Positions 3,935 through 9,390 of a stretch of DNA of 12,726 nucleotides are shown in pieces. The notes under the pieces are model-generated. The model searched no databases, was not told the DNA's origin, and worked only from the letters and a program-made list of their open reading frames with translations. The stretch comes from a virus (taxonomy: Duplodnaviria; Heunggongvirae; Uroviricota; Caudoviricetes), in the IMG/VR virus record IMGVR_UViG_3300014846_000084, one strand, 5' to 3'. The first letter of the stretch is position 1, and every line of letters begins with the position of its first letter. The position numbers were made by a program, and so were the translations under genes.

Positions 3935-4234
3935 ATGAAACTTAAATATTCTGGCTTAACTGCCAGTGGCAACACTCACCCTAAATTTACGCGCGGTGAT
4001 ATTTACCGCGACCAGTACGGCGGCACGGTAATGATTAAGGGCGTGGAGGAACGTCGCGTAACTTACCGCCGTGAAGGCTACGAATATGATTGCGTGATGC
4101 CTGTTTATCAGTTCGACCGTGATTTTTCTCTTGTGCAGGCCGTACCGCGTAACGTGCCCACCAGCAGGGAGAAAGCACGCGCCAATATTCAGAAGATGAA
4201 AACCATGATTAACGGATTCAGGGGTAAAAAATGA
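3935..4234 (+). CDS. Hypothetical protein (99 aa), translationally coupled to the primase gene (ATGA overlap)
   Basis: Track ORF with GGAGA SD upstream. Its stop overlaps the primase ATG at 4231. Confidence 0.6.
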   Translation: MKLKYSGLTASGNTHPKFTRGDIYRDQYGGTVMIKGVEERRVTYRREGYEYDCVMPVYQFDRDFSLVQAVPRNVPTSREKARANIQKMKTMINGFRGKK

Positions 4235-5985
4235 AACTGGCACCGAACGTAAAACAGCAGTCACGCGGCATAAAACACAAAGAAACAGAAGTCATTATTT
4301 TTGCGGGTAGTGATGCCTGGTCACACGCAAAACAATGGCAGGAACATGACGCGCGTATGGCCGGAGATAATGAGCCTCCTGTGTGGCTTGGGGAGCAGCA
4401 GTTATCCGAACTGGATAAGCTGCAAATTGTGCCGGAAGGCAGAAAATGCGTACGAATATTCAGGGCCGGACATCTTGCGCCAGTAATGATAAAGGCGATT
4501 GGTCAGAAGCTGGCGGCGGCTGGCGTACAGGATGCAAATTTTTATCCTGAGGGTATGCACGGCCAGGAGGTGCAGAACTGGCGCGAATATCTGGCCCGTG
4601 AGCGACAGAATCTTTCTGATGGTCTGGTCATTGAGCTTCCGGTAAAGCAAAAGGCGCAACTTTCTCAGATGGCGGACAGTGAGCGCGCGCAGCTGCTTTC
4701 CGGGCGCTTTGATGGCGTTTGCGTGCATCCTGAAAGTGAAATCGTCCACGTCTGGCGCGGCGGGGGATGGTGTCCGGTCAGCACAATGGAACTGAGCCGC
4801 GAAATGGTGGCGATCTATTCAGAGCACAGGGCCACTTTCAGCAAGCGCGTAATCAATAACGCCGTGGAAGCGTTAAAAGTTATTGCCGAACCAATGGGCG
4901 AGCCGTCCGGTGATTTACTGCCGTTCGCCAATGGTGCGCTTGACCTGAAAACGGGGGAATTTTACCCGCACACGCCGGAGAACTGGATCACCACGCACAA
5001 CGGCATTGAGTACACGCCACCAGCACCAGGGGAGAACATCCGCGATAACGCGCCAAACTTTCATAAATGGCTTGAGCACGCAGCCGGAAAAGACCCGCGC
5101 AAGATGATGCGTATATGTGCCGCGCTGTACATGATTATGGCGAACCGGTACGACTGGCAGATGTTTATTGAGGCCACCGGAGATGGCGGGAGCGGTAAAA
5201 GTACATTCACGCACATAGCCAGCCTTCTGGCAGGGAAACAGAACACGGTAAGCGCTGAAATGACATCGCTTGATGATGCTGGTGGACGTGCGCAGGTTGT
5301 CGGGAGTCGTCTTATCGTCCTGGCTGACCAGCCGAAATATACAGGCGAAGGAACGGGCATCAAGAAAATCACGGGCGGTGACCCTGTGGAAATTAACCCG
5401 AAATACGAAAAGCGTTTCACGGCTGTAATCAGAGCGGTGGTGCTGGCGACCAACAATAACCCGATGATATTCACCGAACGGGCCGGAGGTGTGGCACGTC
5501 GTCGCGTGATTTTCCGTTTCGACAATATCGTCAGTGAGGCCGAAAAAGACAGGGAGCTACCGGAAAAGATTGCGGCTGAAATCCCTGTCATTATCCGCCG
5601 ATTGCTGGCGAACTTTACCGACCCTGAGAAGGCACGGGCTTTACTACTGGAACAGCGTGACGGTGATGAAGCTCTGGCAATAAAGCAACAGACGGATCCG
5701 GTTATTGAGTTTTGCCAGTTCCTGAATTTTCTGGAGGAAGCACGCGGCCTGATGATGGGCGGCGGTGGCGATTCAGTGAAGTACACGACCAGAAACAGCC
5801 TTTACCGCGTCTATCTGGCGTTTATGGCGTACGCAGGCAGGAGCAAACCGCTAAACGTAAATGACTTTGGCAAGGCTATGAAGCCAGCCGCGAAAGTTTA
5901 CGGACATGAATATATTACGCGGAAAGTTAAGGGAGTAACGCAGACTAACGCAATAACAACAGACGATTGCGACGCGTTTTTATAA
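4231..5985 (+). CDS. Phage/plasmid primase-helicase, P4 alpha-like (D5_N plus P-loop NTPase C-terminal region), 584 aa; probable replication initiator of the island
   Basis: Walker A reads EATGDGGSGKST and a Walker-B-like RLIVLADQ follows. Overall size and layout match P4-family primase C-terminal domain proteins. The iteron array starts directly after the stop. Confidence 0.88.
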   Translation: MKLAPNVKQQSRGIKHKETEVIIFAGSDAWSHAKQWQEHDARMAGDNEPPVWLGEQQLSELDKLQIVPEGRKCVRIFRAGHLAPVMIKAIGQKLAAAGVQDANFYPEGMHGQEVQNWREYLARERQNLSDGLVIELPVKQKAQLSQMADSERAQLLSGRFDGVCVHPESEIVHVWRGGGWCPVSTMELSREMVAIYSEHRATFSKRVINNAVEALKVIAEPMGEPSGDLLPFANGALDLKTGEFYPHTPENWITTHNGIEYTPPAPGENIRDNAPNFHKWLEHAAGKDPRKMMRICAALYMIMANRYDWQMFIEATGDGGSGKSTFTHIASLLAGKQNTVSAEMTSLDDAGGRAQVVGSRLIVLADQPKYTGEGTGIKKITGGDPVEINPKYEKRFTAVIRAVVLATNNNPMIFTERAGGVARRRVIFRFDNIVSEAEKDRELPEKIAAEIPVIIRRLLANFTDPEKARALLLEQRDGDEALAIKQQTDPVIEFCQFLNFLEEARGLMMGGGGDSVKYTTRNSLYRVYLAFMAYAGRSKPLNVNDFGKAMKPAAKVYGHEYITRKVKGVTQTNAITTDDCDAFL

Positions 5986-5997
5986 TTTGTTGCAATG

Positions 5998-6225
5998 GCT
6001 GTCTACCCTGTCTACCTGAGTAAAGAAAAATACATTTAATTCAGTACATTAACTTAGGTAGACAGCCTTTTTTCACTGTCTACCTACTATCTACCCTCTC
6101 TACCTGATTTTACCTGAATCAGACAGGGAGGTAGATACGGGGTAGATAGTGGATAAAAGCACTCTACCCTACTGAAAGCCGCGCCATTACTGGCATGGTG
6201 GCCAGTAAGGTAGATAAGGTAGACA
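5998..6225. repeat. Iteron array, candidate origin of replication: about 12 copies of GGTAGA(C/T)A / T(G)TCTACC in both orientations flanking an AT-rich spacer
   Basis: CTGTCTACC at 5999-6007, 6008-6016 and 6076-6084; GGTAGACAG at 6057-6065; TCTACC at 6090 and 6099; GGTAGATA at 6130, 6141 and 6209; GGTAGACA at 6218. AT-rich stretch at 6018-6056. Confidence 0.6.
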
Positions 6226-6273
6226 AGGGGAGGCACAACTCAAAACTTTTTAAACGAGGGGGTAAAAATAAAA

Positions 6274-6525
6274 ATGCGCACATCAGGAAAACTTAATAAT
6301 CAGAAGAAGCAGCATAACCGCGCCATTGACCTTACAGAGCACTGGCTGAGAGTGGCGATAAAAATCATCGACCGCAACACGGGGGAAGGATACGCGAAAG
6401 CACATCCCGACCTGATAAGCGCATTCATGACCACGGCGGCGGCAAACTTTGCCACGCTGACAGAACGGGAGATTGCCGAAGCGGAACAGGTAACAACCAT
6501 CAACGTTAAAAGCGCTGGAGAATAA
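6274..6525 (+). CDS. Hypothetical protein (83 aa)
   Basis: Track ORF. GAGGGGG SD at 6256-6262. Followed by an intrinsic terminator. Confidence 0.55.
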   Translation: MRTSGKLNNQKKQHNRAIDLTEHWLRVAIKIIDRNTGEGYAKAHPDLISAFMTTAAANFATLTEREIAEAEQVTTINVKSAGE

Positions 6526-6543
6526 CCGAAGAAGTGAGCACAT

Positions 6544-6568
6544 AGCCGGAGCAATCCGGCTTTTTTTC
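6544..6568 (+). terminator. Rho-independent terminator (AGCCGGA-gcaa-TCCGGCT followed by a T7 run)
   Basis: 7-bp GC-rich stem with a 4-nt loop and a run of seven T immediately after, 20 nt past the stop of the 6274 ORF. Confidence 0.6.
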
Positions 6569-6655
6569 GATCTCATATATCTTAAAAGATGGTTAATTAA
6601 TGATAATCTATCGAAAATACTGGTTATGTAATGATAAGTATCAGGAGAAAACAAA

Positions 6656-6850
6656 GTGGAAGAGATAAAGCAAAGCGCTACCGTGATGATTGATCATGAA
6701 ATCCTTAACGAGCTTAAAAAGTTGCAGTTCGATATTGTGCGCCGGATGAATGAATCAGGTATCTACGGCAGGGCGGCAACACCAACAATAGGGCATCTTG
6801 CGCGCGTACTGTTACGCGAACGCCTGGGCATTGCAACAAGTGAGGCGTAA
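6656..6850 (+). CDS. Hypothetical small protein (64 aa), GTG start; first gene of the putative late/packaging operon
   Basis: Track ORF. CAGGAG SD at about 6642. Preceded by an AT-rich promoter-like stretch at 6570-6650. Confidence 0.5.
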   Translation: MEEIKQSATVMIDHEILNELKKLQFDIVRRMNESGIYGRAATPTIGHLARVLLRERLGIATSEA

Positions 6851-6853
6851 ACA

Positions 6854-7015
6854 ATGGCTATCACAGAACGCGAGGCAAGCATCATTAAGGCCATTGGCGA
6901 GGAAACAAGAGACACCATAGCGCCATTGATGGAAAAGATCGCAGAGCTTGAGACACGAATAAACAAGCTGAGTAATGAAGTTGAAGGCCTGATCTCGTTA
7001 CTCGGTGAGCAATGA
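6854..7015 (+). CDS. Small predicted coiled-coil protein (53 aa, MAITEREASIIKAIGEETRDTIAPLMEKIAELETRINKLSNEVEGLISLLGEQ); absent from the ORF track, which appears to omit ORFs under 60 aa
   Basis: Translated by hand. ATG lies 4 nt after the upstream stop, with a GAGG about 9 nt upstream. Heptad-like charged/hydrophobic pattern. Confidence 0.4.
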   Translation: MAITEREASIIKAIGEETRDTIAPLMEKIAELETRINKLSNEVEGLISLLGEQ

Positions 7016-7143
7016 CATGGGGGGGAGTGTTCCGGCCGGAAAGTCGATCTCCCTGGACACCGCCCCCCGTCTCATTCGTAGAAAATTTTGCTTTTCAAAA
7101 AAGTTACACGAAAAGTTACACCCCCTCAAAACGAGGTTTTTGC

Positions 7144-7632
7144 ATGGCATTAACGACCAAAAAAAAGCGGTTTGCTGATGCGTTATCAAGGGGCGCAAAT
7201 CCCACGGAAGCCGCTATACATGCGGGATACAGCGAAAAGACCGCAAGGGTTAAAGGCTGGCAGCTATCCAACGATCCTGAGGTGAAAAAGTATCTTAAGG
7301 CTGTAACTCCTGATGTAACTTTTCAGGTTACAAAACCGAAAAAAGTTACAAAGAAAGTTACCGAAAAAGTTACACCGGAACGGGCATCAATTAACACCAT
7401 TGAGATGATGGATAACGGCCTACCCGACCCCATCAAAGCAATGGGCAGGATACTGATTGACAACATGGACACAGATCCAAAACTGGCTTTAGATGCCGCG
7501 TTTAAGCTGGCCCAGTTCACCCACCGCAAGATCGGCAGCATTGGGAAAAAAGAGGTTAAAAAACTCAATGCCGCTAGTGTCTCCTCAAATCGGTTCCCCA
7601 TCCCTAAGCCACCAACAGGCTTAAAACACTGA
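7144..7632 (+). CDS. terS: Terminase small subunit (TerS, Terminase_2-like), 162 aa
   Basis: Track ORF 7012..7632 trimmed to the internal ATG at 7144, which has a GAGG SD. N-terminus FADALSRGANPTEAAIHAGYSEKTARVKGWQLSNDPEV matches the conserved TerS HTH signature (AGYS..TA). The upstream 44 codons of the track ORF are GC-rich, structured, non-coding-looking sequence. Confidence 0.8.
   Translation: MALTTKKKRFADALSRGANPTEAAIHAGYSEKTARVKGWQLSNDPEVKKYLKAVTPDVTFQVTKPKKVTKKVTEKVTPERASINTIEMMDNGLPDPIKAMGRILIDNMDTDPKLALDAAFKLAQFTHRKIGSIGKKEVKKLNAASVSSNRFPIPKPPTGLKH
7303..7375. repeat. Cluster of six GTTAC/GTAAC pentamer-containing repeats spaced about 12 bp apart inside terS (encoding the repetitive KVT linker); candidate pac/TerS recognition site
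   Basis: GTAAC at 7303 and 7315; GTTAC at 7328, 7345, 7357 and 7369. Two further AAAAGTTACAC copies lie just upstream of the terS start (GTTACAC at 7103-7109 and 7115-7121). Confidence 0.45.
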
Positions 7633-7643
7633 GGTAGCGAACT

Positions 7644-7805
7644 ATGAGCGAATACATCACAGACCCTATTGATGTACTCACGGAAATCATGAACGACAAG
7701 CAGCAGTCGACCGAAATACGGTTACAGGCCGCCGCTATTCTGATGCCATATTTTCACGAAACACTAAACCCGTGCTTCCAAGAGGAGGAAGAAGATGATC
7801 TGTAA
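7644..7805 (+). CDS. Small acidic protein (53 aa, MSEYITDPIDVLTEIMNDKQQSTEIRLQAAAILMPYFHETLNPCFQEEEEDDL); absent from the ORF track
   Basis: Translated by hand. ATG at 7644 lies 11 nt after the terS stop, with a GAGG about 9 nt upstream. Its 3' end overlaps the start of the capsid-like gene by 11 nt. Confidence 0.4.
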   Translation: MSEYITDPIDVLTEIMNDKQQSTEIRLQAAAILMPYFHETLNPCFQEEEEDDL

Positions 7806-8718
7806 AAACATGAAAGGCGTGTCAGCAGTTCGCGCCGCCAGCGTGCTGGCATCGTGTAAATTTAGCCATGCTGACGCTATAGAGATGACGAAAAGAAATG
7901 ATCCGGCAGTATCGTTATTTCTTGAAAAATCCGTAGTAGCAGGAATGAACACGGATAACATGCCGTCGCTGGTGGCAGAGCCGATAGTAAGAGAGCTTGG
8001 CGAGTATATTTTTTCGCAGTCTGTACCAGGCAAGCTAATCAGCAGCGCGCTAAATCTTCCGTTTGGCGCAAAATTGCAGTCAATATCAGGCAAGGGTAGT
8101 AAATGGCTTAAAGAGGCCGAAGAAATCCCAGTCAAAGAGGGAGAAGTAAACGAAAGCGCGCTAAAACTGTGCAAACTCGGCGCTATTGTGATGCTGAATA
8201 ACGAGCTAATCAAATTTAGCACCCCTGGTACCAATTCAGCGATCAGAGACTTGATCACATCGGAATCGGTGAAAGAAATAGATAAAAAATTTCTTTCCAG
8301 TGACCAGGAGGTGGCTGGCGTATCCCCTGAGGGCGTGCTTAATGGTGCTGATGAGGCCGAAAACTTCATAGAGCTTTTCAAAAAGCACATAGCGAACGGT
8401 AACACGCTTGCCACGTCGTCGCTAATCTTGCCCGTAGAAAACGCCTTACAGCTTACTGATGCTGAGTTCTGGCAGATAGAGCTTTTGAGAATACCGGTAA
8501 TTGTGAGCGAACAGGCGGATCTCATGATGCTGATAGACGCTAAAAAGCTGATTATTAACGTTGAAGCCACGGTTATAACCCCAACTGATGAGGCGGTAAT
8601 AAAAACCGAATCAGGGACGGTTAGCCTTTTCCAGAATGACGCTACAGCGTTCATGGCAATCACCTATTGCGGATGGCAAAAACTCGATAAGGCCGTCACC
8701 GTTCTGGCGAAAAGCTGA
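7795..8718 (+). CDS. HK97-fold major capsid protein homolog (307 aa), putative; possibly a capsid-redirecting MCP paralog given the absence of other head genes
   Basis: AGGAGG SD 7 nt upstream of the ATG. The overall pattern, especially the C-terminal region (LRIPVIVSEQADLMMLIDAKKLIINVEATVITPT...SLFQNDATAFMAITYCGWQ), resembles HK97-type major capsid proteins. Assignment is by eye only. Confidence 0.55.
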   Translation: MICKNMKGVSAVRAASVLASCKFSHADAIEMTKRNDPAVSLFLEKSVVAGMNTDNMPSLVAEPIVRELGEYIFSQSVPGKLISSALNLPFGAKLQSISGKGSKWLKEAEEIPVKEGEVNESALKLCKLGAIVMLNNELIKFSTPGTNSAIRDLITSESVKEIDKKFLSSDQEVAGVSPEGVLNGADEAENFIELFKKHIANGNTLATSSLILPVENALQLTDAEFWQIELLRIPVIVSEQADLMMLIDAKKLIINVEATVITPTDEAVIKTESGTVSLFQNDATAFMAITYCGWQKLDKAVTVLAKS

Positions 8719-8732
8719 TTTTTCCGGCATCA

Positions 8733-8762
8733 ATCCCGATATGGTGATCCCCATATCGGGAT
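8733..8762. other. Perfect 12-bp inverted repeat hairpin (ATCCCGATATGG-tgatcc-CCATATCGGGAT) 15 nt after the capsid-like gene stop; possible weak terminator, RNA element or protein-binding site
   Basis: Arms at 8733-8744 and 8751-8762 are exact reverse complements. Followed by AT-rich sequence but not a clean T-run. Confidence 0.4.
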
Positions 8763-8805
8763 AATTACGAAATTTTCGCAGTTTAATAGCTGACCAGGTG
8801 GAGAA

Positions 8806-9138: not shown

Positions 9139-9390
9139 AAAAAGACGGTATTTAAACAGGGGGAGTATTTAATACCCCTCCCACCAGCCTGATTAACATT
9201 TAACCGGAAAAAAAATCCGGTACCATGATGGCAGACGCTAGGGCAATCATTGCTGAAATTGCACACTTTTTAAGCAAATCATTTTAGTTATACGTTTGGT
9301 TATACGATTTAAAAGTTGAATCAAGCATATTTATTAAAATCATGTAGTTACACGCTAAATTAAACTACTCTCGTGCCAAAAATCCCAAGA

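What the first reader, a model, noticed from the sequence alone, without database searches (positions are those of the whole stretch)
7016..7143. GC-rich structured element in the terS leader (G7 run, 12-bp palindrome TTCCGGCCGGAA, C6 run)
The terS upstream region holds a run of seven G (7019-7025), a perfect palindrome (7030-7041) and a run of six C (7063-7068), able to form a long-range stem enclosing a hairpin. It is followed by the two AAAAGTTACAC repeats. This looks like an attenuator or protein-binding control element for packaging gene expression. The ORF track's N-terminal extension of terS runs through it.
Basis: seen in the sequence. Interest (0 to 1): 0.4.

Follow-up and report, generated by a model that had tools for sequence, protein, structure and literature searches.

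The report
Satellite island's cos DNA-packaging site
The GC-rich "structured leader" in front of the small-terminase gene is most likely not an RNA attenuator but the cohesive-end (cos) DNA-packaging site of a phage-satellite island, shared with Shiga-toxin phages of E. coli, so it is an ordinary, though neatly organised, feature.

Summary
The window is a PICI-like phage satellite (int, alpA, D5-type primase, ori iterons, terS, capsid homolog). The element is homologous to the HNH-terS intergenic region of Pankowvirus-type Stx phages. For one of them, Lys8385Vzw, published PhageTerm analysis places 3' cohesive ends (CGCCCCCCCT) on this motif, and the deposited genome ends there. HK97 and SfI/SfV ends, determined experimentally, align to the same position. 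By homology the C6 run is the core of a 10-nt 3' overhang (CGCCCCCCGT, 7061-7070). The G-run is a position-conserved upstream cos subsite, 31-35 nt before the overhang in every relative. The palindrome is at chance frequency and is not conserved. G-run length varies (7-10) among satellite copies, so the terS N-terminal extension is not coding. The AAAGTTAC repeats (six, all within 7100-7373, four inside terS) start at a fixed +31 from the cut. They are replaced by GTTAAC in the Stx phages, which fits TerS-recognition (cosB-like) sites specific to the satellite's own TerS. No cleavage or binding was shown for this island. Verdict: a new member of a known kind; moderate-low interest.

The parts
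7019..7025 (+). G-run: conserved upstream cos subsite (role unknown; possibly cosQ-like or a terminase/HNH contact)
   Evidence: A G-rich block lies 31-35 nt upstream of the overhang in all 10 cos relatives examined. Its length varies from 7 to 11.
7026..7054 (+). Variable spacer, including the palindrome TTCCGGCCGGAA (7030-7041)
   Evidence: Only 64% identical to the Stx phage over 7026-7053. It is A/T-rich with no palindrome in L053 and L055. Palindromes of this size occur at chance frequency in the window.
7055..7075 (+). cosN core GGACACCGCCCCCCGTCTCAT
   Evidence: Exact 21-mer shared with Stx phages and found in 39 IMG/VR loci. Unique in the window.
7061..7070 (+). Predicted 10-nt 3' cohesive end CGCCCCCCGT. 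Top-strand nick between 7070 and 7071, bottom-strand nick between 7060 and 7061.
   Evidence: Homologous position to the PhageTerm-determined 3' cos end CGCCCCCCCT of Lys8385Vzw (PMC7946995; record ends), to the HK97 right end and to the SfI/SfV end TGCCCGCCCC. Inferred for this island, not measured.
7080..7098 (+). Conserved A/T tract (AGAAAATTTT...) at +10 to +28 from the cut
   Evidence: (C/T)AGAAAAT is conserved in the Stx phages, E175, Silvanus, L051, L053 and L055. In HK97, TerS binds +15 to +29 including an A-tract (PMC11331095).
7099..7121 (+). Two AAAAGTTACAC repeats: proposed TerS recognition sites (cosB-like), proximal pair
   Evidence: The first copy lies at +31/+32 from the cut in four independent loci. 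The Stx phage has GTTAAC at +34 instead. All six AAAGTTAC copies in the window cluster in 7100-7373, against 0.54 expected.
7133..7146 (+). Shine-Dalgarno GAGG and the true terS start codon ATG (7144-7146)
   Evidence: Read from the sequence. Homology to the phage TerS begins at residue 2-3.
7144..7632 (+). terS of the satellite (Terminase_2; 47% identical to the Stx-phage TerS)
7315..7373 (.). Four more AAAGTTAC copies inside terS (7315-7322 on the minus strand; 7342, 7354 and 7366 on the plus strand), encoding the KVT-repeat linker. Proposed distal TerS sites.
   Evidence: The same DNA word is kept in terS of L051, L053 and L055 despite 54-62% protein identity. Copy number varies: P0003 lacks 8 aa, which equals two 12-nt units.
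6854..7015 (+). Upstream 53-aa ORF whose stop codon lies 4 nt before the G-run. It occupies the position held by the HNH gene in the phages.

Best explanation
The element at 7019-7121 is the cos (cohesive-end) packaging site of a phage-inducible chromosomal island. It works as double-stranded DNA.

Proposed mechanism. After a helper phage of the Pankowvirus/Stx type is induced, the island replicates into concatemers. The helper has the gene order HNH endonuclease - cos - terS - HK97-class terL. The helper's TerL nuclease, assisted by its HNH protein, makes staggered nicks in the conserved core GGACAC|CGCCCCCCGT|CTCAT. This leaves a 10-nt 3' overhang, so the C6 run is the middle of the sticky end. 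The G-run about 35 nt upstream is a second, position-conserved cos subsite of unknown role. Specificity for the island comes from its own TerS. I propose that TerS binds the AAAGTTAC repeats that begin 31 nt downstream of the cut and continue inside terS. The helper's TerS uses GTTAAC repeats at the equivalent place.

Shown: homology to the phage elements, synteny, the cut sites in relatives, and the distribution of the motifs. Inferred: cleavage in this island, TerS binding to the repeats, and the identity of the helper.
For: 1. Context. The window carries int, AlpA, a D5-type primase, iterons, terS and a capsid homolog, and sits next to yejO/narP. This is a PICI-type satellite.

2. Homology. 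Window 7019-7097 matches an intergenic stretch of Stx phages. In 94 phage records that stretch always lies between the HNH gene and terS-terL.

3. Terminase class. The phage TerL is PF03354/PF20441 and groups with HK97, SfV, phiE125 and phiSLT-type 3'-cos terminases.

4. Mapped ends. Lys8385Vzw, induced from E. coli O103 RM8385, is reported as a cos phage with 3' cohesive ends CGCCCCCCCT (PMC7946995). Its record ends ...GGACACCGCCCCCCCT and restarts CTCACGCAGAGAAAAAATT, the same element. The HK97 ends (G9 - 32 nt - CGCCGCCAAA|) and the SfI/SfV end (TGCCCGCCCC) align to the same place. The records of E175 and Silvanus start within 2-6 nt of it.

5. Selection pattern. Against the Stx phage, the cosN block is 95-100% identical and the G-run is kept. 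The spacer is 64% identical and the repeat zone 22%.

6. Independent satellites and a Hafnia prophage keep the same layout: G-run, about 35 nt, GGACAC, 10-nt overhang, CTCAC, A-tract, then the first repeat at +31/32.

7. The satellite and a helper-type prophage co-reside in RM8385. The island module is in 222 of 5426 complete E. coli genomes and the helper-type module in 1255.

8. The conserved C-terminal half of the satellite TerS fits use of the helper TerL.
Against: - There is no experimental end-mapping, packaging or binding data for this island. The cut is placed by homology, with an uncertainty of about 2 nt.
- The island has no HNH or terL of its own, and its helper has not been identified experimentally.
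- The overhang differs by one base from that of Lys8385Vzw (GT versus CT at its end), although other Stx prophages have the identical GT form.
- TerS binding to AAAGTTAC is inferred only from position, clustering and co-variation with TerS type. The conserved A-tract at +10 to +28 could be the real TerS site, as in HK97.
- The complementarity between the G-block and the C-rich end recurs in 7 of 9 relatives, and pair counts slightly exceed shuffles. A structural role for the inverted repeat, in DNA or RNA, is therefore not excluded.
Confidence: 0.85

Rival explanations
1. RNA attenuator or regulatory hairpin in the terS leader. The G7:C6 stem enclosing a hairpin would terminate or modulate transcription or translation of terS.
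For: The RNA fold pairs the G-run with the C-run at -28.7 to -38.9 kcal/mol, z about -1.8 to -2.5. Similar closing stems are predicted in 7 of 9 relatives. Pair counts are slightly above shuffles, 59% against 53%. The element lies in a transcribed intergenic position.
Against: No U-tract or terminator call at the element and no Rfam hit. The z-scores are weak, and the fold is absent in HK97 (z = +1.3) and in the Hafnia phage. The inner hairpin and palindrome are not conserved. G-run length is polymorphic. The strongest conservation falls on the mapped cut site, not on the stem partners. The control measures are known to be exceeded by related sequences that have no structure.
Confidence: 0.05
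2. Inactive relic. The cos sequence was dragged in with terS by recombination with a phage and no longer functions in the island.
For: The island lacks HNH and terL. No transfer data exist. TerS-encoding E. coli PICIs tested in PMC6092414 were not mobilised under the conditions used.
Against: The cosN core is exactly conserved while its flanks have diverged. The layout is kept in at least three divergent satellite lineages. terS, the capsid homolog and the repeats are intact. The island is present in 222 complete genomes at 96-99.8% identity.
Confidence: 0.07
3. A pac site for headful packaging. The Terminase_2-type TerS would bind the repeats and initiate imprecise cuts, as in SPP1 or pac-type SaPIs.
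For: TerS belongs to PF03592, a family common in pac phages. Repeats lie inside terS, as with the P22, SPP1 and P1 pac sites (my own knowledge).
Against: The homologous TerS of Lys8385Vzw (47% identical) works with an HK97-class TerL and gives defined 3' cohesive ends. The cosN core is conserved in the island.
Confidence: 0.03

Closest known systems
cos site of Stx-converting phages of the Pankowvirus type (Lys8385Vzw, 1717, 2851, BP-4795; 3' overhang CGCCCCCCCT)
   Same: Same G-run, same GGACACCGCCCCCC(G/C)TCTCA core, same A-tract, same position immediately upstream of a homologous terS.
   Different: The island has no HNH gene upstream and no terL downstream. The spacer differs (64% identity). 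The downstream repeats are AAAGTTAC instead of GTTAAC, and the distance from the cut to terS is 73 nt rather than about 230 nt.
HK97 cos (10-nt 3' overhang; cleavage stimulated by the HNH protein gp74; TerS site at +15 to +29)
   Same: G9 block 32 nt upstream of the overhang, an ACCGCC motif at the cut, a C-rich 10-nt 3' overhang, and an A/T tract downstream.
   Different: The HK97 TerS belongs to another family. There are no GTTAC-type repeats, and sequence identity outside the anchors is low.
SaPIbov5-type cos satellites of Staphylococcus (carry the helper phi12/phiSLT cos site and Ccm, a capsid homolog)
   Same: A satellite carrying the cos of an HNH-dependent helper plus a homolog of the helper's major capsid protein (PMC8569155, PMC5052747).
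   Different: This island also encodes its own TerS with its own candidate recognition repeats. SaPIbov5 is described as relying on the helper terminase complex. The host phylum is different.
EcCICFT073-type E. coli PICIs (lambda-like cosN, divergent cosB, Rpp)
   Same: Same idea of sharing the helper's cosN while having a different cosB so that packaging is redirected (PMC6092414).
   Different: Those use lambda-type 5'-overhang cos and the adaptor Rpp, and have no terS. This island has HK97-type 3'-overhang cos and a complete TerS homolog.
cf-PICIs (EcCIEDL933 type)
   Same: Target HNH-dependent cos phages and encode hnh-terS-terL and capsid genes.
   Different: This island has only terS and a capsid homolog. 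It has no terL, portal or protease, and in this window no HNH.

Membership tests
HK97-type (3'-overhang, HNH-assisted) cos site | Sequence homology to a cos site whose ends were mapped on virion DNA | tested here: met
   Aligns with the Lys8385Vzw, HK97 and SfI/SfV ends.
HK97-type (3'-overhang, HNH-assisted) cos site | Located immediately upstream of terS and downstream of an HNH gene, with an HK97-class TerL (PF03354) next to terS | tested here: inconclusive
   Met in the phage relatives and partly in satellite L051, which has HNH-cos-terS. In this window the element is upstream of terS, but no HNH or terL is present. They would have to come from a helper.
HK97-type (3'-overhang, HNH-assisted) cos site | Staggered cleavage giving a 10-nt 3' overhang in the element's own DNA | not testable with these tools
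   Needs virion or particle DNA end mapping.
Phage-inducible chromosomal island (PICI) | int, alpA-type regulator, primase/replicase with adjacent ori, about 10 kb, no lysis or tail genes, specific att site | tested here: met
   int (1-1230), AlpA (1596-1784), D5_N primase (4231-5985), iterons (about 6000-6230), and att-like repeats at 9283-9306. The island is integrated beside tRNA-Pro between yejM and yejO.
Phage-inducible chromosomal island (PICI) | Induction, replication and high-frequency transfer dependent on a helper phage | not testable with these tools
   Experimental.
Intrinsic terminator / transcription attenuator | GC-rich stem-loop followed directly by a U-run, or alternative terminator/antiterminator structures | tested here: not met
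   The stem is followed by GUCUCAUUCGUAG. There is no terminator call at the element, no Rfam match, and no conserved inner hairpin.
cosB / TerS recognition repeats | Repeated short motif at fixed distance from the nick site that changes together with the TerS type | tested here: met
   AAGTTAC at +31/32 in four loci with KVT-type TerS, and GTTAAC at +34 in the Stx phage. The motifs are confined to the cos-terS region.
cosB / TerS recognition repeats | Direct binding by the cognate TerS | not testable with these tools
   Needs EMSA or footprinting.

The most novel reading that the evidence does not exclude
The satellite keeps the helper's nick site (cosN) but has its own TerS and its own cosB. 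That cosB is written partly into the terS coding sequence: the AAAGTTAC words force a KVT-repeat linker in the protein. Copy number changes in 12-nt steps, so packaging specificity and TerS linker length would evolve together. In addition, the G-block 35 nt upstream, often complementary to the C-rich overhang, could be a second copy of the nick-site recognition sequence that acts as a cosQ-like termination signal for HNH-dependent terminases.
Probability: 0.35. Interest if true: 0.55.

Novelty: new member of a known kind. Interest (0 to 1): 0.35.

Why it matters
It corrects a plausible-looking misreading: GC-rich inverted repeats just upstream of terS in phage-like islands should first be tested as cos or pac sites. 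It predicts the exact sticky end (CGCCCCCCGT) and a candidate helper class, the HNH-type Stx and lambdoid prophages present in about 23% of complete E. coli genomes. The island family itself is found in about 4% of complete E. coli genomes, largely STEC lineages (O26, O103, O111, O157). If the island is mobilised by Stx phages, it is relevant to gene flow and possibly to interference with Stx-phage production. The comparison also shows a common layout across HK97-like cos sites that could guide terminus prediction: a G-block, 31-35 nt, then GGAC and a C-rich 10-nt overhang.

Tried and rejected
- Megablast of 6600-7700 against phages found nothing. Only the sensitive mode revealed the 79-nt match.
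- A literature search for the literal sequence returned only a 16S primer and unrelated human loci.
- Kala 2014 and Weiditch 2020 (HK97 gp74) are not held.
- The Silvanus announcement states that PhageTerm could not place its cos site, so the record starts of Silvanus and E175 are supportive but not proof.
- A genome-contig scan with the TerS protein found no relatives.
- The Rfam search gave only a sub-threshold miRNA chance hit.
- The promoter scan found no sigma-70 promoter in 6200-7700, so the source of terS transcription remains unknown.
- The O157 defective-prophage paper discusses only lambda-type cos, Sp4/Sp14.
- The idea that the 12-bp palindrome is a protein site was dropped. It is at chance frequency and absent from all non-identical relatives.
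- The idea that the ATG at 7012 starts a longer TerS was dropped: frame-breaking G-run polymorphism, homology that begins at 7144, and a good SD at 7133-7136.

Full report
**Observation.** The terS start codon is at 7144, preceded by GAGG at 7133-7136. RNA folding pairs the G-run with the C-run around an inner hairpin, but stability is only modestly better than shuffles (z = -1.8 to -2.5). A 12-bp perfect palindrome is expected about three times in a window this size and is seen four times. A G7 run followed within 80 nt by a C6 run appeared in 4 of 300 shuffles. On statistics alone the element is only mildly unusual.

**Context.** The window encodes a tyrosine integrase (1-1230), AlpA (1596-1784), DUF4222, a D5_N-type primase (4231-5985) followed by iterons, small ORFs, a Terminase_2 small terminase (7144-7632) and a 307-aa HK97-fold capsid homolog (7795-8718). 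The chromosomal autotransporter yejO follows on the other strand. Near-identical copies lie beside tRNA-Pro between yejM and yejO/narP. This is a PICI-type phage satellite. The module from 6600 to 8800 occurs in 222 of 5426 complete E. coli genomes, many of them STEC (O26:H11 11368, O103 RM8385, O111:H8, O157:H7).

**What the element matches.**
- Sensitive blastn matched window 7019-7097 to an unannotated intergenic stretch of Stx1a-converting phages.
- In those phages the stretch lies between an HNH endonuclease gene and terS-terL.
- The same arrangement occurs in 94 deposited phage records, including 1717, 2851, BP-4795 and YYZ-2008.
- The phage TerL is PF03354/PF20441. Its relatives are HK97, SfV, phiE125 and phiSa2/phiSLT-type terminases, the class that makes 3' cohesive ends with the help of an HNH protein (PMC9410871).
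- The 21-mer GGACACCGCCCCCCGTCTCAT is shared exactly by the island and the phages. It retrieved 39 IMG/VR loci that fall into a phage class and a satellite class.

**Where the DNA is cut in relatives.**
- Zhang et al. 2021 report that Stx1 phage Lys8385Vzw, induced from O103 strain RM8385, is a cos phage with 3' cohesive ends of sequence CGCCCCCCCT at the end of its genome (PMC7946995). The record MT225100 ends ...GGGGGGGATCATCCGGCGAAAAAAACGATCGCTCCGGACACCGCCCCCCCT and restarts CTCACGCAGAGAAAAAATTCCC...GTTAACATGTTAAC. This is the same element.
- HK97 ends were determined experimentally (10-nt 3' overhang). Its record ends ...GGGGGGGGGATCAAATC...ATGACCGCCGCCAAA.
- The SfI/SfV end is TGCCCGCCCC (PMC3636060). 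It lies 31 nt downstream of a GGGGAGGGGCGGG block and directly after CCGGAC.
- The records of Burkholderia phage vB_E175 and Stenotrophomonas phage Silvanus start within a few bases of the aligned position. For Silvanus the authors state that cos could not be placed by PhageTerm, so this is weaker evidence.
- In the alignments all of these share one layout: a G-rich block, a 31-35 nt variable spacer, (G)GAC(AC), a C-rich 10-nt overhang, often CTCAC, and then an A/T tract.

Transferred to the window, the overhang is CGCCCCCCGT (7061-7070), with nicks at 7060/7061 and 7070/7071. The C6 run is therefore the core of the sticky end, and the G7 run is the conserved upstream block.

**Conservation pattern.** Against the Stx phage, the G-run and the cosN block are 95-100% identical. 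The spacer that holds the palindrome is 64% identical, and the repeat zone 22%. A Salmonella satellite (L055), a second E. coli satellite carrying HNH-cos-terS-capsid homolog (L051), and a Hafnia prophage carrying HNH-cos-terS-terL-protease/capsid (L053) all keep the layout. Their spacers are unrelated and mostly A/T-rich, with no palindrome.

**Test of the RNA-structure idea.**
- No terminator is called at the element and the stem is not followed by a U-run.
- No Rfam family matches.
This is within the range the tool warns can arise from relatedness alone, and the structure was derived from one of the sequences.
- Individual folds do pair the G-block with the C-rich end in 7 of 9 cases, with weak z-scores of -1.0 to -1.8. 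They do not in HK97 (z = +1.3) or in the Hafnia phage, whose overhang CTCGCCTTCT has no C-run while its G7 block is retained.
- I conclude that the hairpin is not the selected feature. The recurrent inverted-repeat relation between the G-block and the overhang remains unexplained and may be a DNA-level property of these cos sites.

**The ORF extension.** The G-run is 7, 8, 9 or 10 nt long in different satellite copies, which breaks the frame from the ATG at 7012. Homology with phage TerS starts at residue 2-3 of the 7144 start. The extension is not coding.

**The repeats.**
- All six AAAGTTAC words of the window lie in 7100-7373, against 0.54 expected and 0 of 200 shuffles. Two are upstream of terS and four are inside it, one of them inverted. 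There they encode the linker KKVTKKVTEKVT.
- In the four loci with this TerS type, the first copy sits at +31/+32 from the predicted cut, and the internal copies are at similar offsets. In the Stx phage no AAGTTAC exists; five GTTAAC copies occupy +34 to +148.
- TerS proteins that are only 54-62% identical keep the same DNA word in their linker. One variant has lost exactly two 12-nt units (P0003).
- The satellite TerS is 47% identical to the Stx-phage TerS. The N-terminal HTH and the C-terminal half are conserved and the middle is unrelated. No deposited phage has a closer TerS.
- This fits a cosB-like set of TerS sites specific to the satellite, downstream of a cosN shared with the helper. 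It is analogous to lambda R sites and to the EcCICFT073 situation (PMC6092414).
- An alternative or additional TerS contact is the conserved AGAAAAT tract at +10 to +16, by analogy with the HK97 TerS site at +15 to +29 (PMC11331095). Binding was not tested.

**Helper.** The island and a Pankowvirus-type Stx1 prophage co-reside in RM8385. Helper-type HNH-cos-terS modules occur in 1255 of 5426 complete E. coli genomes, usually in several copies. The RM8385 island has overhang ...CCGT and Lys8385Vzw has ...CCCT. Other Stx prophages carry the identical CCGT form.

**Comparison with known systems.** Functionally the island resembles SaPIbov5-type cos satellites (helper cos plus a capsid homolog, Ccm) and EcCICFT073 (shared cosN, private cosB). 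It differs from both in encoding a full TerS homolog. It differs from cf-PICIs in lacking terL, portal and protease. Fillol-Salom et al. 2018 mention TerS-encoding E. coli PICIs whose helpers were unknown. I found no paper describing this cos site in an island. It is a new member of a known kind.

**Limits.** Everything about this particular island is inferred from homology and motif distribution: cleavage, helper identity and TerS binding. The exact nick positions carry an uncertainty of about 2 nt.

Noticed in passing
window 7644-7805 (+): A 53-aa ORF (MSEYITDPIDVLTEIMNDKQQSTEIRLQAAAILMPYFHETLNPCFQEEEEDDL) matches the TerS profile phrog_641 at positions 89-125 (E = 4e-7). By eye it resembles the conserved TerS core (DPIKAMGRILIDN...LALDAAFKLAQFTH), with an added acidic tail. 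BLASTP finds no similarity to either TerS. It could be a TerS decoy or packaging-interference peptide.
   Followed up: partly
window 7795-8718 (+): A 307-aa Phage_capsid homolog. It corresponds to the capsid half (residues 291-629, 24% identity) of the protease-capsid fusion protein of a helper-type phage (L053). It is a candidate Ccm-like capsid-size redirection protein, and a similar gene follows terS in satellite L051.
   Followed up: partly
window 7300-7375 (inside terS): The TerS linker KKVTKKVTEKVT is encoded by 12-nt AAAGTTAC-containing repeats. Copy number differs between alleles: P0003 lacks 8 aa. This suggests slippage and a DNA-level constraint on a coding region.
   Followed up: partly
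window about 6000-6230: A cluster of GGTAGA(C/T)A / CTGTCTACC iterons directly after the primase gene, a likely replication origin of the island. The RM8385 variant has a different replicase (RepA helicase) and different iterons (AAAAAGTGGGGAGTAAAA, three copies).
   Followed up: no
window 9283-9306; L057 1337-1362 and 9886-9911: A tandem TTTAGTTATACG pair at the right edge of the island. In RM8385 the identical 26-mer flanks the island on both sides, 8549 bp apart, so these are probably att-associated repeats that define an island of about 8.5 kb.
   Followed up: partly
phage records LC567818, LC567822 and others (PPompW prophages), at the position equivalent to window about 7019-7025: An IS110-family element, ISEc20, is annotated at this locus. 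The match to the cos region begins inside the G-run, so the HNH-proximal part is not matched. The IS may sit in or next to the G-run and disable these prophages for packaging.
   Followed up: no
window 6544-6561 (+): A strong intrinsic terminator (AGCCGGAGCAATCCGGCT followed by T7) after ORF 6274-6525, upstream of the operon that leads into terS. No sigma-70-like promoter was found between it and terS, so how terS is transcribed is unclear.
   Followed up: no
L001 9255-9416 (equivalent to window 6854-7015): In record CP061244 the 53-aa coiled-coil ORF just upstream of the cos site is annotated 'antitermination protein NusG'. Its size and sequence make that name doubtful. CP061244 itself is a 1.4-Mb 'plasmid' that carries chromosomal genes (yejM, narP, ccm).
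   Followed up: no
cos regions of SfV (L059/L058), the Stx phages, E175 and Silvanus: The G-rich block is often the reverse complement of the C-rich overhang core: in SfV, GGGGCGGG against CCCGCCCC. The pattern is absent in HK97 and in the Hafnia phage. This recurrent inverted repeat in HK97-like cos sites is unexplained.
   Followed up: partly
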